From: Candidatus Saccharimonadota bacterium
GTDB taxonomy: Bacteria > Patescibacteriota > Gracilibacteria > BD1-5 > UBA2023
DNA length: 32,000 nt
NCBI GenBank assembly: GCA_963706795.1
Contig: OY970170.1
Coordinates: forward strand, 330,001-362,000
Direction of reading: 5' to 3'
Shown here: positions 8,646-27,730 of the stretch, in pieces
Numbering within the stretch: position 1 is the stretch's first letter
Layout of the letters: the number at the start of each line of letters is the position of its first letter
The notes under the pieces: model-generated
Databases searched by the model: none
The model's input: only the letters and a program-made list of their open reading frames with translations
What the model was told of the DNA's origin: nothing
Translations under genes and position numbers: made by a program

Positions 8646-8894
8646 TGAAGCGGGAGCCCCTTCCGAGGAGGGAAGGGGCTGTACTGCATACTACGCGTTA
8701 CCGTGTATCAGCATGAGCAGATTAAGGCTCAAGAAGCGAAGGGTCTTATCTCACTGGCGACTCCATGATAACTGCGTCATCACTTCAATGTCTCGGACCT
8801 ATCCTGCGCATCGCTTGTTTCCTAATACCTCAGTAACGGATGTTTTATATCTAGGAAAGATGCAAAGTCAATTTGTTCACACTACGAGCATTTT

Positions 8895-8921
8895 AAAATC
8901 CATCTCGAAAGATGGATTTTT
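8895..8921. terminator. Strong hairpin with flanking A/T runs (terminator-like)
   Basis: AAAATCCATCT (8895-8905), CGAA loop, AGATGGATTTT (8910-8920), followed by T. Confidence 0.5.
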
Positions 8922-8935
8922 GGTTGTGGAATGGC

Positions 8936-9036
8936 GGGACACCATGGTCCTCCAAGAAATACTCCTTATTTATGCCAGTGGGATTCTCGAATTGTGGGAC
9001 ATAGAGGTTCTCCAGGATTTTGGGACAAATGGGACA
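8936..9036 (+). repeat. Four GGGACA motifs (iteron or operator-like)
   Basis: GGGACA at 8936, 8996, 9022 and 9031. The first two sit in similar longer contexts (GGGACAccatGGTcCTCCAaGA versus GGGACAtagaGGTtCTCCAgGA) 60 bp apart. The last two are about one helical turn apart. Confidence 0.45.
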
Positions 9037-9131
9037 GTATAAAAAGGCTCATGAGATGCATAGAGCGTTTTTTATGTCGTAATGCCCAGTAGTTCGTATA
9101 ATATCAAAATTATCAAGCCATATCATATCAC

Positions 9132-9572
9132 ATGACAACAAAAAGAAAGTTGCGGGTTCCGGGCCTGCTATCACTGACCTGACTCGGCATATCCCTTTTA
9201 ATTCCCGGTTCGTACGAGGCAATGATGGCACAAATACCACAGGGGATGATATCTCAGAGCGTATCAACTGCTCAGGACATGCGCGAGTACTACAGGGAGA
9301 ATAGCTCGAACTTCAGATACGGCGAAAGGACCGCCGACATCCTCTCGATGGTCGTAGGTTCATATAATTTCGATAACTTTAATGCTTGCCGAAAGATCCT
9401 AGATTCAAACATCATTGCGCGAAAATTGGATGAGAAAATGCTAAATGGGTCTTGCATGGTCGGCATTGGTACGATGAACTGAGCTTTCACCAAAGAGGAC
9501 GAGAAGAGGTTCTTTTACGGATGCCTTATAGATGGACATCCGGCTGCAGAGTGTGCAGCGGTCAAAAAGTAG
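9132..9572 (+). CDS. Hypothetical N-terminally anchored/secreted protein (146 aa)
   Basis: ATG at 9132 (MTTKRKLRVPGLLSLT-G-LGISLLIPGSYEA...). It reads through TGA at 9180 and 9480 to TAG at 9570-9572 and contains track ORF 9222..9482. Confidence 0.5.
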
Positions 9573-9603
9573 GTCTTTCAGAAAAATCCATAAGCTAAAT
9601 ATC

Positions 9604-24217: not shown

Positions 24218-24276
24218 AGCTGGACTTCCAAACGATAAAAACCATTGTTGTGTGGATACGAATAATTCTCCAGCAT

Positions 24277-25665
24277 ATGAGCATACAAGCATTCTCCCCT
24301 TCCAAGGAAACCGACGCCGGAACCCGCTTCGCCCCGAACGACCCGTGGAGCGCCGCGAAAAGCTTCGGGGAAGAGCGTTCCGCGTACCGTTACTGCCTCT
24401 ACGCGAGGAAATCCTCCGAGGAGGATGAGCGGCAGGCTCTCTCGATAGACTCCCAACTGGAAGCAATGAGGAAAGTAGCAGAACGCGACGGACTCGACGT
24501 GGTCGAAGTCATACGCGAGAGCAAGTCCGCAAAAGCCTCGTGAGAGCGTCGGGGCTTCAACGAGCTCATCGACGGGCTCCGGCAGAGGAGGTACGACTCG
24601 GTGCTCACGTGGGCTCCCGACCGCCTCTCGAGAAACGCCGGGGACCTCGGCTCCATGGTCGACCTCATGGACCAGTGAACCCTCCGCGAGATCCGCACGA
24701 ACGGGCAGGTCTTCAAGAACGCCCCGAACGAGAAGTTCCTCCTCATGATCCTCTGCTCGCAGGCGAAGCTCGAGAACGACAATCGAAGCATCAATGTGAT
24801 CCGGGGACTCAAGACCAAGGCCTCTACCGGCCACATCCCGCATATCGCTCCTCTCGGCTACCTCAACCAACGGAGCTTCATGCGGAACGGCGGCAGGATC
24901 GTGCTCGACGAGGAACGCGCGCCGTATGTTAAGCAGATCTTCGAGAAGGCCGCGAAAGCCGGCATGAGCTGACGCGACATCCGGGACTGGATCATGGAGA
25001 AGACGCCCCTACGGATGAGAAGCTGAAAGCCCGTGGTGGTATCCACGATCTACAAGATGCTCAACAACCCCTTCTACTACGGGATGTACGAATACCCGAA
25101 GGACAGCGGGAACTGGTGCACGGGAGACTACGAGCCGATCATAACGAAAGAGCTCTTCGACGCCGCGCAGAGACAGTTGGACAATTCGCCCAGGTACCGG
25201 CCTAGGACGAAGGACTTCGCCTTCACGAAGATCCTAAAGTGCGGGAACTGTGGGTCCTGAATCACAGCACAGGAAAAATTCAAGAAGATCGCCGGGCACG
25301 AAGAGCCGCGGGGCTACGTCTACTACCACTGCACTCGGTACAACGACCGGAAGTGCAAGGAGAAGGCGGTCCGGGAGGATTCCATGATGGAACAGCTGAC
25401 CGGCCTAATAGAGAAGGCGGAAATAGACATGGATCTCGTGAGCGATTCGCTGAAGGCGGAGCTCGAGAGGTTCAACGCCTTCCAAGGGCAGCTGCTGAGG
25501 ATTAAGGGAAACGACGTCGAGGGCGTTGCAAACGAAATAGACCTGCGTGAATACATGCGCTACGTCGTCTGCAATGGTACGAAAGAAGAGAAGCGAGAAG
25601 TTCTCGCAATGATCATTTGAAAAATTGTGCTGAAGAGTAAAGCAATATCTATAGAAATAGTTTAA
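24277..25665 (+). CDS. Large serine recombinase (integrase)
   Basis: Resolvase-type N-terminus YCLYARKSSEEDERQALSIDSQ, WAPDRLSRN, recombinase domain, and zinc-ribbon CGNCGS-G(TGA)-...YYHCTRY..KC. Track ORFs 24250, 24745, 25033 and 25384 share one frame. TAA at 25663-25665. Confidence 0.88.
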
Positions 25666-25772
25666 TCTTTAATTTTAAAATCAGCGTCCATATGTATGCT
25701 TGATGAGTTACGGCCTACCCTCAGGAATTCACGAGTCCTAACTGTAACGCCATTACATAGTGATCTCTACTT

Positions 25773-27374
25773 ATGCGAATATCCAGGCTTATCATCCGAA
25801 ATTTTAGATCCGCAAAATCAATAGATCTAAATCTCAACGACTTCAATGTATTTGTCGGTCAAAACAACCACGGGAAAACAAATATCCTTGAAGCGCTTAA
25901 CTGGTTCTACAACGGTAAGAAAACCCTTGCCTCTGACAGATTTATGCAGGGGGAAAGCGATATAGAGGTGTCCGTTGAATTCATGGGGGCCCTGGAAGAA
26001 TGCGAAGCGATGAAGAATGATAAAAACAAGGCAGCGATAAAGAAAATACTAGCAGACTCGGACGTGGTAACTATTTACAAATCCAGTTCTGACCACAAAA
26101 GGAAAATCGTCGTAAACGGCGTAGATCATGGGAATCCAACCGGATTTGACGCAGCCCTCAATGATTTCCTTCCGCGCTTGCAATACGTTGAATCCACAGC
26201 CAGACTGAAGGAAGTATCAGAATACAAAACCACTACACCCATAGGACAGATGCTATCCGGGGTACTTTCCGCAATTATCGCCAAGGATCCGGTATACCAG
26301 CAATTTCGCGATAAATTCGAGGAAGTCTTCGAAAACGATGACTCTCAAGTAAAGAGCGAGCTCAACGCCTTGGCAGATTCAGTAGGCCTCCATCTGCAAA
26401 AGCAGTTTCCCGACGGAACTACCGTAAAGTTCAGCGTCGAAACTCCTGAGATCGAAGATCTTTTGAAAAAATTTGAAACTCGCGTAAACGACTGAATCGA
26501 GACGTTGGCAGAGTGCAAGTGAGATGGCATGCAAAGGGCAGTCATGCTTGCAATCATCCAGGCGTACGCGGATTTCCGAAAGAAGCAGTGAGATGGGAAA
26601 ACCTTCATCTTCGTAATAGACGAAGCCGAGTTACATCTCCATCCAACCGCACAGAGATCTCTCAAAGAGGCTCTTTTGACGGCAACATCATTGCGCGATC
26701 AAGTAATAATTAGCACTCATTCTTCTGTGCTGGTTGCCGATGGATCGGACTCCCAATCGGTCTTTCGGGTCATGAAGTCAGATAAAATAACTTCCGCGGA
26801 ACTAGTCGCCGAAGAGGCAAAGCAGGATCTGATCTACGAACTCCTGGGCTGAAGTCCGGCGGATCTATTATTGCCAAAAAACTTTCTTATAGTCGAGGGG
26901 CAAAGCGAACACGTTTTCCTGAAAATCATCGCCAATAGGTTTTATCCTGAATTTTCCGGAATCCAGATAGTGTTCGCCGGATGAGATATCGACGAGCAAG
27001 AAACTACTTTTATCAATATTCACAAGCTTTTCGTGCCAATAGTTTCTGCGCCGAATCCGCTATACAAGGAAAAGACCATCATATTATGCGATCAGCCAAA
27101 CGACCAACAAAGATCTAAATATGAAAAATTCCGAGAGTGCTATCCATACATAACGGACGACGAGCAACTCTTCATGATACCACATAAGTCACTGGAGGAA
27201 TATTATCCACAACCTTGGAAGAAAACTTACGATGAATGAAGGGCTTTGGCAAGAGGCGGCAAAGTTGCTCTTGCGGAAGCTGCCGCCCAAGCTATCACAA
27301 AAGAAGCTTTCGAAGCGGAGATGCCAAAAGTATACGAAGCAATGAAAGCTGCCATAGAAAAGGCTTTTTCATAG
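25773..27374 (+). CDS. OLD-family ATP-dependent nuclease (ABC ATPase plus Toprim), 533 aa
   Basis: N-terminus MRISRLIIRNFRSAKSIDLNLNDFNVFVGQNNHGKTNILEAL (Walker A), Walker B/D-loop FIFVIDEAELHLHP, and Toprim-like LIVEGQSEHVFL. It reads through 6 TGA codons to TAG at 27372-27374. Confidence 0.75.
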
Positions 27375-27690
27375 GGAAAATGGGGAGCGAAAAGACGACC
27401 ACACCATCATTTTCGTTTTAAATGCCCTCTACATGCTTATTGCCTTTCTACCTTTGCAATGGCAATTCCCCATCACAAAGGCACACATGGCTGGTGGGAA
27501 TCCTCATTGGTTGCATCCATTTTAAGCCGAGAAGGCCTTAAATTTCGCGAAGAGTTCATCTCATTGCTCGAATTTCGAGCCTGATAGCGGACAAAATATG
27601 GCGGTCGAAATTACGAAGAAAAGAGGTCAAGCCGATCTACGATAAAACTCTTCCCTTAGGTAAATCTCGCGAATTCTCACGCTTATCGTA

Positions 27691-27730
27691 AAAAACCTAA
27701 AAACGCCCTCACGGGCGTTTTTAGGTTTTT
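27691..27730. terminator. Long perfect hairpin terminator (bidirectional)
   Basis: AAAAACCTAAAAACGCCC (27691-27708), loop TCAC, GGGCGTTTTTAGGTTTTT (27713-27730). Confidence 0.8.

What the first reader, a model, noticed from the sequence alone, without database searches (positions are those of the whole stretch)
8647..27730. About 19-kb mosaic island, itself recoded to TGA=Gly, next to tRNA-Ser
Between the ogt terminator (8614-8645) and a terminator/tRNA-Ser (27691-27862) the sequence changes character. It carries mobile-element genes (terminase, ParB-MTase, serine recombinase), two defence loci and several unknown genes.

By eye it is a patchwork. Blocks 8650-13500 and 18000-25700 look GC-richer, while the Hachiman-like operon (13532-17777) and the OLD gene look host-like and low in GC.

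The element's own conserved genes need TGA=Gly. TerL's C-terminal nuclease motif lies beyond three TGA codons, and the MTase motif I contains one. So the element is adapted to a code-25 host. Mobile elements of such hosts are poorly described.
Basis: partly seen in the sequence, partly recalled or inferred. Interest (0 to 1): 0.72.

Follow-up and report, generated by a model that had tools for sequence, protein, structure and literature searches.

The report
Recoded capsid-less terminase–recombinase defence island
A 19-kb foreign segment in a Gracilibacteria genome reads TGA as glycine and is built around a phage-derived DNA-packaging and integration module that has no capsid genes, sits beside anti-phage systems, and belongs to a large family I could not find described.

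Summary
GC, GC3 and tetranucleotide usage all shift between ogt (ends 8455) and tRNA-Ser(GGA) (27773-27862). The interval carries Hachiman (HamA/HamB), an OLD nuclease, ParB-methylase, a second methylase, TerS, TerL and a large serine recombinase (LSR).

TGA=Gly is shown for the element's own genes. At its 21 in-frame TGAs, standard-code homologues have Gly in 54% of aligned residues and never Trp among the common ones.

A Gracilibacteria relative keeps ogt and tRNA-Ser-jag-pilin synteny but has 6.9 kb of unrelated genes between them, so the slot is variable and the segment is an island.

The new point is the five-gene block ParB-MTase/MTase/TerS/TerL/LSR. It recurs in about 50 metagenomic loci without portal or capsid genes, with defence cargo between or after TerL and LSR. 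Related true phages have a portal after TerL. The TGA-recoded copies form one clade (100/100) nested among standard-code copies.

The most likely reading is a phage-derived, satellite-like integrative element carrying or neighbouring defence genes. Mobility and helper dependence are inferred, not shown. Code-25 prophages were already reported in 2023.

The parts
8489..8588 (.). Perfect 24-nt inverted repeat (8489-8512 / 8565-8588) with a 52-nt loop, just after ogt. It lies at or near the left edge of the variable segment. Function unknown.
   Evidence: The fold of 8470-8660 gives -70 kcal/mol, z = -6.75. Two Logan contigs of ERR12037365 end and start inside its loop, at 8548 and 8530.
8614..8645 (+).
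   Evidence: Sequence and the 13-bp stem in the fold. The simple terminator scan did not list it.
9132..9572 (+). Gene B: 146 aa, hydrophobic N-terminus (read by eye, no prediction run), unknown function, 2 in-frame TGA.
   Evidence: No Pfam or PHROG hit.
9532..11334 (+). Gene C: 600 aa, hydrophobic N-terminal stretches (read by eye, no prediction run), unknown function, 8 TGA, GC3 0.56.
   Evidence: No Pfam, PADLOC or PHROG hit.
11419..12525 (+). Gene D: 368 aa with four CxxC pairs (zinc-ribbon-like), unknown function. Homologues lie beside the terminase-LSR module or beside ImmA-like M78 peptidases in other mobile-element contexts.
   Evidence: tblastn hits in L110, L118, L119 and L140. Contexts. 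Conserved Cys columns.
12522..13499 (-). Gene E: 325 aa, probable multi-pass membrane protein (hydrophobic stretches read by eye, no prediction run), unknown function, 8 TGA.
   Evidence: Only a sub-threshold DUF3422 hit.
13532..16621 (-). HamB, the Hachiman SF2 helicase (1029 aa, 22 TGA). Its composition is host-like.
   Evidence: PADLOC HamB 2.8e-93, DEAD/ResIII, motif VI V[TGA]RAGR aligned to G, GC3 0.46.
16608..17777 (-). HamA (DUF1837), the Hachiman effector partner. It overlaps HamB by 14 nt.
   Evidence: PF08878 8.8e-17, PADLOC HamA 4e-19.
18146..19357 (+). Gene H: N-terminal zinc ribbon followed by hydrophobic stretches (read by eye), 403 aa, unknown function. First gene of the GC-rich block.
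   Evidence: Sub-threshold Zn_Ribbon_1, phrog_8436 2.7e-7. GC rises from 0.35 to 0.45 at about 17.9-18.0 kb.
19418..20158 (+). Gene I: 246 aa, unknown function. A homologue sits directly upstream of ParB-MTase in recoded relative L091.
   Evidence: 35% identity over 228 aa in L091. No Pfam or PHROG hit.
20247..21551 (+). Gene J: ParB_N-domain + N6/N4 DNA methyltransferase. First gene of the conserved five-gene module.
   Evidence: PF02195 5.2e-9 and PF01555 2.9e-26. 54-59% identical in L083-L091. Found upstream of TerL in 56 of 67 IMG/VR loci.
21553..22302 (+). Gene K: second N6/N4 DNA methyltransferase. The TGA in motif I is the invariant Gly.
   Evidence: PF01555 3.5e-29. Aligns to DpnA and CcrM. 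Position K206 is Gly in 51 of 51 standard-code homologues.
22305..22727 (+). Gene L: terminase small subunit-like HTH protein (140 aa).
   Evidence: Five TerS PHROGs at 1.6e-6 to 5e-5. PF13022 3.1e-6, just below the curated cut-off. Adjacent to TerL in 49 of 67 loci.
22730..24217 (+). Gene M: terminase large subunit (495 aa) with Walker A, Walker B and RNaseH-like nuclease residues conserved.
   Evidence: phrog_38 9.6e-77, Terminase_6C. Invariant K73/S74, D175/D176/E178, D316 and H453/D454/D455 across 50 homologues.
24277..25665 (+). Gene N: large serine recombinase (462 aa). Last gene of the conserved module and of the GC-rich block.
   Evidence: Resolvase 4.6e-21, Recombinase 4e-16, Zn_ribbon_recom 2.1e-7. 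Downstream of TerL in 39 of 67 loci. GC falls at about 25.5-25.7 kb.
25773..27374 (+). Gene O: solitary OLD-family ATPase-nuclease (533 aa). It occupies the post-LSR position where relatives carry other defence cargo.
   Evidence: PADLOC Old 1.2e-66, AAA_15 9.6e-36, GC3 0.49. Cargo slots in relatives.
27691..27730 (.). Perfect 18-nt-stem hairpin flanked by A and T runs. Probably the terminator of tRNA-Ser, and the right limit of the island.
   Evidence: (I5).
27773..27862 (-). tRNA-Ser(GGA), with its 3' end facing the island. It is conserved at the same place in relatives L095, L096 and L176.

Best explanation
Window 8.5-27.7 kb is a horizontally acquired composite island. It occupies a variable slot between ogt and tRNA-Ser(GGA) in a Candidatus Gracilibacteria genome (genetic code 25).

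Its backbone is an integrated member of a large phage-derived family. The family is defined by a five-gene module: ParB-methylase, methylase, TerS, TerL and large serine recombinase (20.2-25.7 kb, with genes H and I upstream). The module has no portal, capsid, tail or lysis genes. In relatives it carries anti-phage systems between TerL and the recombinase or after the recombinase.

In this window OLD sits in the post-recombinase position. Hachiman sits between the module and a second GC-rich block (B-E) that has the same k-mer signature.

Inferred mechanism:
- The serine recombinase integrates and excises the element.
- TerS/TerL recognise and package its DNA into procapsids supplied by a related helper phage, which is a satellite life style.
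- The two orphan methylases protect the transferred DNA.
- The defence cargo benefits the host.

The lineage that entered TGA=Gly hosts has placed TGA at conserved glycine positions of its essential genes. It can therefore now be expressed only in code-25 cells.

Shown: gene content, family membership, absence of recognisable structural genes, the recoding, and the synteny break.

Inferred: present-day mobility, helper dependence, the exact ends, and whether Hachiman, OLD and B-E travel with the module.
For: Island:
- Composition shifts in GC, GC3 and tetranucleotide usage.
- Relative L176 keeps Ogt, then tRNA-Ser-Jag-hyp-pilins, but has unrelated genes between them. tblastx homology to the window stops at 8440 and resumes at 27998. 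L096 shows a similar pattern.
- The host is Gracilibacteria, from the names of homologues of the right-flank protein.

Family:
- The same five genes occur in the same order in recoded contigs L083-L091, at 53-61% TerL identity.
- They also occur in IMG/VR loci. Of 67 TerL relatives, 56 have ParB-MTase or MTase upstream, 49 have TerS adjacent and 39 have the LSR within 10 kb downstream. Thirteen more are too short to tell.
- The gaps hold a type I R-M system, a Cap15-like gene, a reverse transcriptase, VWA/AAA_5, AAA_12+MTES_1575 and MmeI, not structural genes.
- A 25.5-kb contig with two modules has no structural hit anywhere between them.

Phage origin:
- Portal, protease and major capsid genes follow TerL only in the basal relatives L144-L163. 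One of them, L152, has the ParB-MTase-TerS-TerL arrangement.
- In an NJ tree the capsid-less loci form one clade that excludes the portal types, with bootstrap 61/100.

TerL function:
- The catalytic residues are invariant across 50 homologues of 41-66% identity.

Code:
- At the 21 in-frame TGAs of J-N, standard-code homologues have Gly in 54% of 966 aligned residues, and at 6 sites in at least 88%.
- Within the recoded clade TGA and GGN interchange at homologous codons.
- The recoded clade has 100/100 support and is nested among standard-code elements.
Against: - No att sites, direct repeats or tRNA duplication were found.
- No same-species empty site was found, and no circular or terminally redundant contig among 45 complete contigs checked.
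- No replication or regulatory module was recognised in the window. Genes B, C, D, E, H and I are unannotated.
- No helper phage was identified.
- Support for monophyly of the capsid-less clade is only moderate (61/100, NJ).
- In some relatives nucleotide similarity ends about 0.3 kb after the LSR and begins 0.65-0.8 kb before ParB-MTase. The mobile unit may therefore be only about 7.5 kb (18.0-25.7 kb). Hachiman, OLD and B-E might then be separate acquisitions in a hotspot.
- Hosts of the IMG/VR relatives are not known directly. Names on protein hits point to Paceibacterota, Moraniibacteriota and Colwellbacteria.
Confidence: 0.6

Rival explanations
1. The region is a decayed prophage remnant plus unrelated defence genes, accumulated in a tRNA-adjacent hotspot. 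The terminase, methylase and recombinase genes are what survived deletion of the structural genes from a code-25 prophage. Nothing moves any more.
For: No att sites, circular forms, replication genes or helper were found. Composition is patchy, with at least three signatures. Defective prophages with serine recombinases are well known, for example the B. subtilis skin element (my own knowledge).
Against: The same gene set with the same deletion recurs in dozens of loci spanning 35-63% TerL identity, in both standard-code and recoded hosts. It forms one clade in the point-estimate tree. TerL catalytic residues are invariant. No frameshifts or stops other than TGA occur in the five genes. Random decay would not reproduce one architecture.
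Confidence: 0.25
2. The terminase-methylase module has been domesticated and acts in the cell, for example by interfering with packaging of infecting phages or as part of a defence island, rather than for its own transfer.
For: The module is constantly associated with defence systems, including R-M, Cap15-like, RT, OLD, Hachiman, GmrSD and MmeI. Known satellites interfere with helper packaging (PMC11417361, listed).
Against: It is linked to a large serine recombinase and sits in different genomic contexts, which argues for mobility. No known defence system uses TerS+TerL, and PADLOC gave no hit for the island's unknown genes C, D, E and I and only a weak LmuB hit for H (the five module genes themselves were not scanned against PADLOC).
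Confidence: 0.07
3. The region is a complete small temperate virus whose structural proteins are too divergent to recognise, hidden among B, C, D, E, H and I.
For: Six island genes have no annotation. CPR phages are poorly sampled, and the closest GenBank phage TerL is only 26% identical.
Against: Related true phages in the same TerL family have easily recognised portal, protease and capsid genes, with PHROG E-values from 1e-18 to 1e-120. tblastn with those proteins finds nothing in the window or in any LSR-linked locus. Minimal family members of about 6-8 kb have no room for structural genes. C, E and H look like membrane proteins by eye (hydrophobic stretches in the translations).
Confidence: 0.04
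4. The region is not an island. It is either ancestral DNA with odd composition or an assembly chimera that joins DNA of a GC-richer organism.
For: The Logan assembly of ERR12037365 breaks at 8530-8548, at the left edge. The closest relative's contig starts exactly at the tRNA-Ser 3' end.
Against: One Logan contig runs uninterrupted and 100% identical from 8530 through the whole island, the tRNA and the right host flank. The source contig is 1.27 Mb. ogt and tRNA-Ser are neighbours (about 7 kb apart) in relative L176, so the join is expected. Relatives lack every island gene at this locus.
Confidence: 0.03

Closest known systems
Code-25 prophages of Gracilibacteria and Absconditabacteria (Liu et al., mBio 2023, PMC10746230)
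   Same: An integrated phage-like region in a TGA=Gly host with dense in-frame TGA, recognised by terminase and integrase genes.
   Different: Those regions were classed as prophages, with portal or tail genes among the hallmark evidence. This element has no structural genes, and it is placed here in a capsid-less family that also exists in standard-code hosts.
Capsid-forming PICI (cfPICI) phage satellites
   Same: A chromosomal island of phage origin that encodes its own TerS and TerL and can carry accessory or defence genes (PMC10085698).
   Different: cfPICI are defined by 11 core genes, including capsid, protease and head-tail adaptor/connector genes plus a primase-replicase. None of these is found here. 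Integration here is by a large serine recombinase.
PICI / SaPI satellites
   Same: Integrase plus TerS, no structural or lysis genes, accessory genes in fixed slots, and a size of 7-20 kb.
   Different: PICI redirect the helper's TerL with their own TerS and have regulator and primase-replicase modules. This family carries a full TerL with intact ATPase and nuclease residues and two methylases, and has no recognisable replication module.
PLE of Vibrio cholerae
   Same: A satellite that integrates with a large serine recombinase and protects its host against phage (abstracts listed).
   Different: As far as I know PLEs encode no terminase and depend on ICP1 for packaging. They have no sequence relationship to this element.
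Defective prophage-like elements with serine recombinases (e.g. the B. subtilis skin element) and defence islands next to tRNA genes
   Same: Phage-derived genes plus a large serine recombinase in the chromosome, and clustering of Hachiman and OLD in a variable locus.
   Different: This architecture is conserved and appears to be under purifying selection across many lineages. There is no tyrosine integrase and no tRNA-derived direct repeat.

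Membership tests
Genetic code 25 (TGA = Gly) | In-frame TGA at positions where homologues have Gly, not Trp | tested here: met
   Host ABC signature LSG[TGA]EQQR. MTase motif I and HamB motif VI. Gly at 54% of 966 aligned residues across 21 TGA sites, with Trp absent from the top residues. TGA and GGN interchange among recoded relatives.
Hachiman defence system | Adjacent HamA (DUF1837) and HamB (SF2 helicase) genes in one operon | tested here: met
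   HamA PF08878 8.8e-17 and PADLOC 4e-19. HamB PADLOC 2.8e-93. The genes overlap by 14 nt on the minus strand.
OLD-family nuclease (class 1, solitary) | N-terminal ABC-type ATPase plus C-terminal Toprim nuclease, with no helicase partner | tested here: inconclusive
   PADLOC Old 1.2e-66 covers profile positions 2-407 of 578, and AAA_15 scores 9.6e-36. The Toprim part was seen only by eye (IVEGQSE ... GGDID in the translation). No adjacent partner gene is present.
Large serine recombinase | Resolvase catalytic domain + Recombinase domain + zinc beta-ribbon | tested here: met
   PF00239 4.6e-21, PF07508 4e-16 and PF13408 2.1e-7, in that order.
Tailed-phage terminase (TerS + TerL) | TerL with Walker A/B ATPase and RNaseH-like nuclease, and a small DNA-binding subunit encoded immediately upstream | tested here: met
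   phrog_38 9.6e-77 and Terminase_6C. Five TerS PHROGs around 1e-6. Catalytic residues are invariant in 50 homologues.
Complete (pro)phage of the Caudoviricetes | Portal, major capsid protein, protease/scaffold, tail and lysis genes | tested here: not met
   No Pfam or PHROG structural hit in any island gene. tblastn with portal, MCP and protease of related phages finds nothing in the window.
PICI | Integrase, regulator (alpA/stl/merR type), primase-replicase, capsid-morphogenesis gene and TerS (PMC10085698) | tested here: not met
   Only a recombinase and TerS are present. No regulator, primase-replicase or capsid-morphogenesis domain was detected.
cfPICI | TerS, TerL, capsid, protease and head-tail adaptor and connector genes, 9-11 of 11 core genes (PMC10085698) | tested here: not met
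   TerS and TerL are present. All head and connector genes are absent.
tRNA-targeting integrative island | Tyrosine integrase next to a tRNA gene and a direct repeat of the tRNA 3' end at the far side | tested here: not met
   No tyrosine integrase. The tRNA 3' 26-mer occurs once even with 3 mismatches allowed. No flanking repeats.
Capsid-less ParB-MTase/MTase/TerS/TerL/LSR module family (defined here) | The five genes are collinear, with no portal after TerL and the LSR within 10 kb downstream | tested here: met
   Window 20247-25665. The same order occurs in L083-L091 and in about 39-50 IMG/VR loci. The window's TerL falls inside the clade.
Mobile element (active) | Excision and integration junctions, empty sites in conspecific strains, or presence in particles | not testable with these tools
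   No reads are available. No same-species genome was found. No circular contigs were found.

The most novel reading that the evidence does not exclude
A widespread and so far undescribed class of phage satellites in CPR/Patescibacteria. These elements keep a complete terminase (TerS+TerL), two protective methylases and a large serine recombinase, but have no capsid genes. They steal procapsids from related helper phages and act as shuttles for anti-phage systems. One lineage crossed into TGA=Gly hosts and became locked to them by writing TGA into invariant glycine codons of its packaging and integration enzymes.
Probability: 0.35. Interest if true: 0.8.

Novelty: new variant of a known kind. 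Interest (0 to 1): 0.6.

Why it matters
Very little is known about how genes, and defence systems in particular, move among the tiny, uncultured CPR bacteria, and less still for those with a reassigned stop codon.

This window ties a concrete 19-kb island to a recurrent, compact, phage-derived module seen in both standard-code and recoded hosts. That provides three things:
- a candidate vehicle for defence-gene exchange in CPR;
- a natural experiment on how a mobile element follows its host into a new genetic code. Here TGA replaces GGN at conserved Gly sites, which should confine the element to code-25 hosts;
- a set of compact large serine recombinases that function in an unusual code context.

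The recoding of integrated elements in these hosts is in itself already published.

Tried and rejected
- Genome-contig scan with TrpRS as anchor.
Only the TGA-free Ogt could be looked up directly.
- A viral-contig scan with the single TerL sequence found nothing. The alignment-based scan worked.
- Searches for att sites, flanking direct repeats and tRNA 3' copies found nothing beyond chance.
- Terminal redundancy or circularity was checked in 45 complete contigs of the family and none was found.
- Rfam at gathering threshold gave no hit in the window.
- The simple terminator scan missed both boundary hairpins, and its counts were below the shuffled expectation.
Homologue P0242 with a 3-sequence alignment gave pLDDT 43.5, so no fold search was run.
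- PDB sequence search for D found nothing significant.
- The Logan contig break at 8530-8548 was considered as evidence for the island's left end or for an invertible segment. It was rejected as ambiguous. The overlap is 19 nt and the repeat arms are shorter than what I recall as Logan's assembly word size (31; my own knowledge, not checked here), so it does not behave like a clean graph branch.
- Literature searches for this gene combination in CPR or in satellites found no description. The library is incomplete, so this is weak evidence of novelty.

Full report
**The observation**

The window is readable only if TGA is a sense codon. Stop-to-stop ORFs of 100 codons or more sum to 13,107 codons with three stops and 29,089 with two, and every recognisable gene carries in-frame TGAs.

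Between ogt (7955-8455) and tRNA-Ser(GGA) (27773-27862, minus strand) the composition changes:
- GC is 0.36-0.46 in the flanks, 0.47-0.52 at 10-13.5 kb, 0.38-0.44 over 13.5-18 kb, 0.49-0.59 at 18-25.5 kb and 0.43-0.46 over the last gene.
- GC3 per gene separates the classes more sharply. Left host genes are 0.30-0.43 and right host genes 0.42-0.52. B-E are 0.56-0.66, HamB/HamA 0.46/0.39, H to the recombinase 0.56-0.78 and OLD 0.49.
- Composition-normalised tetranucleotide usage correlates at 0.84 between the two host flanks, 0.60-0.64 between host and the 18-25.7 kb block, and 0.78 between the two GC-rich blocks. Hachiman is closest to the left host flank at 0.77.

- HamA and HamB (PADLOC 4e-19 and 2.8e-93) and OLD (1.2e-66).
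- ParB_N+N6_N4_Mtase and a second N6_N4_Mtase.
- A TerS-like protein, TerL (phrog_38, 9.6e-77) and a large serine recombinase with all three domains.
- Six further genes (B, C, D, E, H, I) have no family assignment.

**Genetic code**

TGA is glycine, not tryptophan, in both host and island genes.
- The host ABC ATPase has LSG[TGA]EQQR.
- Both methylases have the invariant motif-I glycine written as TGA, aligned to DpnA and CcrM structures.
- HamB has TGA at the G of motif VI.
- For the five module genes I compared all 21 in-frame TGAs with standard-code homologues of the same family. Gly accounts for 54% of 966 aligned residues and at least 88% at six sites. Trp is not among the common residues.
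- Among recoded relatives, TGA and GGN interchange at homologous codons. Window TGA corresponds to relative GGN at 8-12 of 19 sites. Relative TGA corresponds to window GGN at 16-28 of 30-47 sites.
- TGA makes up 10-33% of glycine codons in island genes, the same range as in host genes.

**Is it an island?**

The host is a member of Candidatus Gracilibacteria. Homologues of the right-flank protein (28515-29663) are named Gracilibacteria or come from 'gcode 4' bins. No same-species genome without the segment was found, but two relatives give synteny evidence.

L176 (GCA_965191385.1, about 50-65% protein identity) has:
- Ogt at 121-591;
- then 6.9 kb of DUF1993, ABC transporter, glycosyltransferase and pilin genes;
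- then tRNA-Ser(GGA), Jag, the 381-aa protein, the next gene and two pilins, in the window's order and orientation.

tblastx homology to the window stops at 8440 and resumes at 27998. Nothing from 8455-27770 is present.

L096 is more distant. It has SGNH-MFS, then 8 kb that includes the same DUF1993-ABC genes, then tRNA-Ser and the 381-aa protein.

The ogt to tRNA-Ser slot is therefore variable, and the window's content is lineage-specific. The closest relative, L095 (70-80% identity), has a contig that begins exactly at the tRNA's 3' end, so it is uninformative.

There are no flanking direct repeats and no second copy of the tRNA 3' end. The recombinase is a serine enzyme. The tRNA is therefore a neighbour, not a demonstrated target.

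A chimeric assembly is unlikely. A Logan contig from ERR12037365 is 100% identical from 8530 through the island into the right flank. The left join is the one expected from L176. However, the same Logan assembly breaks at 8530-8548, inside the loop of a strong hairpin.

**What the core is**

A TerL search returned the source protein, on a 1,267,896-bp contig and called as a 341-aa fragment. It also returned full-length relatives at 53-63% identity and hundreds at about 44%. Some of these are named as from Paceibacterota, Moraniibacteriota and Colwellbacteria.

The contexts of the closest relatives (L083-L091) all show the same collinear five genes: ParB-MTase, MTase, a 130-146-aa TerS-like protein, TerL and a large serine recombinase. 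These are followed by AAA_12+MTES_1575 and MmeI genes, with no structural genes within 10 kb. These contigs are recoded. ORF coverage is 0.26-0.43 in code 11 against 0.90-0.95 with TGA as sense.

A standard-code relative at 44% identity (L093) has a similar arrangement. The second methylase is missing, and a LexA-like repressor, an HTH protein and an Ltp lipoprotein are added.

An alignment-based scan of IMG/VR gave 67 TerL relatives at 34% identity or more, all in the standard code. Of these:
- 56 have ParB-MTase or MTase upstream;
- 49 have TerS adjacent;
- 39 have the recombinase within 10 kb downstream, 29 of them within 2 kb;
- 13 are too short to tell.

Where TerL and the recombinase are about 8 kb apart, the gap holds defence genes. 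These include a type I R-M system with a Cap15-like gene after the recombinase, or a reverse transcriptase with VWA and AAA_5 proteins.

One 25.5-kb contig carries two modules 16.9 kb apart. No structural hit occurs anywhere between them.

By contrast, eleven lower-identity relatives have portal, protease and major capsid genes directly after TerL (PHROG E-values from 1e-18 to 1e-120). One of them, L152, keeps ParB-MTase-TerS-TerL in front.

In an NJ tree the LSR-linked, capsid-less loci form one clade that excludes all portal-type loci (bootstrap 61/100). The recoded loci, including the window, form a 100/100 clade nested inside it.

TerL's Walker A, Walker B and nuclease residues are invariant in 50 homologues of 41-66% identity. 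The nearest GenBank phage TerL is only 26% identical.

**Extent of the element in the window**

In relatives, nucleotide similarity between related copies starts 0.65-0.8 kb upstream of ParB-MTase (L084/L087, L137/L138). In one pair it ends about 0.3 kb after the recombinase (L104/L100). In the recoded clade it continues through the downstream defence genes.

In the window the GC-rich block begins at about 17.9-18.0 kb, before gene H, and ends at about 25.5-25.7 kb, at the recombinase's 3' end. Gene I has a homologue in the same position in L091. The minimal unit is therefore probably 18.0-25.7 kb.

OLD occupies the post-recombinase cargo position, and OLD-like genes occur near the module in L118 and L127.

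The B-E block shares the module's k-mer signature. Its zinc-ribbon gene D has homologues just upstream of the module in four IMG/VR loci, and beside ImmA-like M78 peptidases or R-M genes elsewhere.

Whether B-E, Hachiman and OLD belong to one 19-kb element, or are neighbours in a hotspot, is not resolved.

**Mechanism**

Homology shows:
- a recombinase able to integrate and excise DNA;
- a complete terminase;
- two orphan methylases;
- two defence systems.

The following is inferred. The element is a satellite-like derivative of a tailed phage. It excises, is cut and packaged by its own TerS/TerL into procapsids of a related helper, is protected by its methylases on arrival, and pays its way with defence cargo.

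The main rival is a fixed prophage remnant. It is disfavoured by the recurrence of one architecture across a deep clade and by conserved catalytic residues. It is not excluded, because no junctions, circles or helper were found.

**Comparison with what is known**

Dense TGA recoding of integrated phage-like regions in Gracilibacteria and Absconditabacteria was reported by Liu et al. 2023 (PMC10746230). That part is a new member of a known kind.

The module differs from the satellite families defined in PMC10085698:
- PICI have TerS but no TerL, plus a primase-replicase and regulators.
- cfPICI have TerL together with capsid and connector genes.
- As far as I know, PLE use a serine recombinase but encode no terminase.

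Full-text searches for this gene combination in CPR or in satellites found nothing. The library is incomplete, so this is only weak support for novelty.

**Verdict**

The added value is that the island's core belongs to a large, capsid-less terminase-recombinase family with defence cargo, and that one sub-lineage of it has adapted to code 25.

Interest is moderate to high (0.6). It rests on the family and the code-crossing rather than on the recoding as such.

Noticed in passing
window 8489-8588 (and 8470-8660): A perfect 24-nt inverted repeat with a 52-nt loop lies directly after ogt, followed by a small hairpin and the terminator hairpin. The 191-nt stretch folds at -70 kcal/mol, z = -6.75. 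Two Logan contigs of run ERR12037365 end at 8548 and start at 8530, inside the loop. It could be a structured 3' UTR, a MITE-like relic or a recombination site.
   Followed up: partly
source contig of the window (proteins P0001 and P0128): Public protein calls for the 1.27-Mb source contig are fragments that stop at TGA. TerL is called as 341 aa instead of 495, and the 381-aa flank protein as 210 aa. At least one source therefore seems to have annotated this genome in the standard code.
   Followed up: no
L095 1-90 (GCA_049315825.1, contig JBMOJK010000001.1): In the closest relative found, the 135-kb contig begins exactly at the 3' end of tRNA-Ser(GGA). The DNA next to this tRNA may be hard to assemble, or strain-variable, there too.
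   Followed up: no
IMG/VR contigs 3300014205_009253 (L109/L110), 3300032737_000190 (L111/L119), 3300033402_000781 (L134/L141): Single contigs carry two copies of the ParB-MTase/TerS/TerL/LSR module, 17-37 kb apart. This suggests tandem or repeated integration of related elements.
   Followed up: partly
L100, L102, L104, L107, L155 (between TerS and TerL): A gap of about 1.6 kb separates TerS from TerL. It shows internal nucleotide similarity to the TerL region, which suggests an extra TerL-like paralogue or fragment in this subgroup.
   Followed up: no
L084 2346-6758, L087 2785-6842, L093 482-5319: Copper or heavy-metal genes (CsoR-type repressor, P-type ATPase, DsbD_2/HMA) lie just upstream of the module in both recoded and standard-code relatives. 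This could be cargo or a preferred neighbourhood.
   Followed up: no
window 11419-12525; L110 483-2162; L179 974-2683: The zinc-ribbon protein D family sits next to an ImmA/IrrE-type M78 metallopeptidase in two unrelated contigs. This hints at a regulator-protease pair like ImmR/ImmA, but with a zinc-ribbon partner.
   Followed up: partly
window 21402-21454 and 22156-22208: A 53-nt direct repeat at 85% identity. It is the conserved motif-I region, including the TGA glycine codon, shared by the two adjacent methylase genes.
   Followed up: yes
window 17778-18145: The intergenic region between the HamA start and gene H holds nested inverted repeats (18007-18022/18101-18116 perfect; 18053-18070/18124-18141) and a plus-strand terminator-like hairpin at 17968-17987. 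It is a candidate regulatory region or element end.
   Followed up: no
window 8713-9042 and 27375-27690: About 0.7 kb and 0.3 kb of apparently non-coding DNA lie at the two edges of the island. The only ORF there (8713-9042, no TGA) has no homologues in Pfam. These may be decayed remains of earlier occupants of the slot.
   Followed up: no
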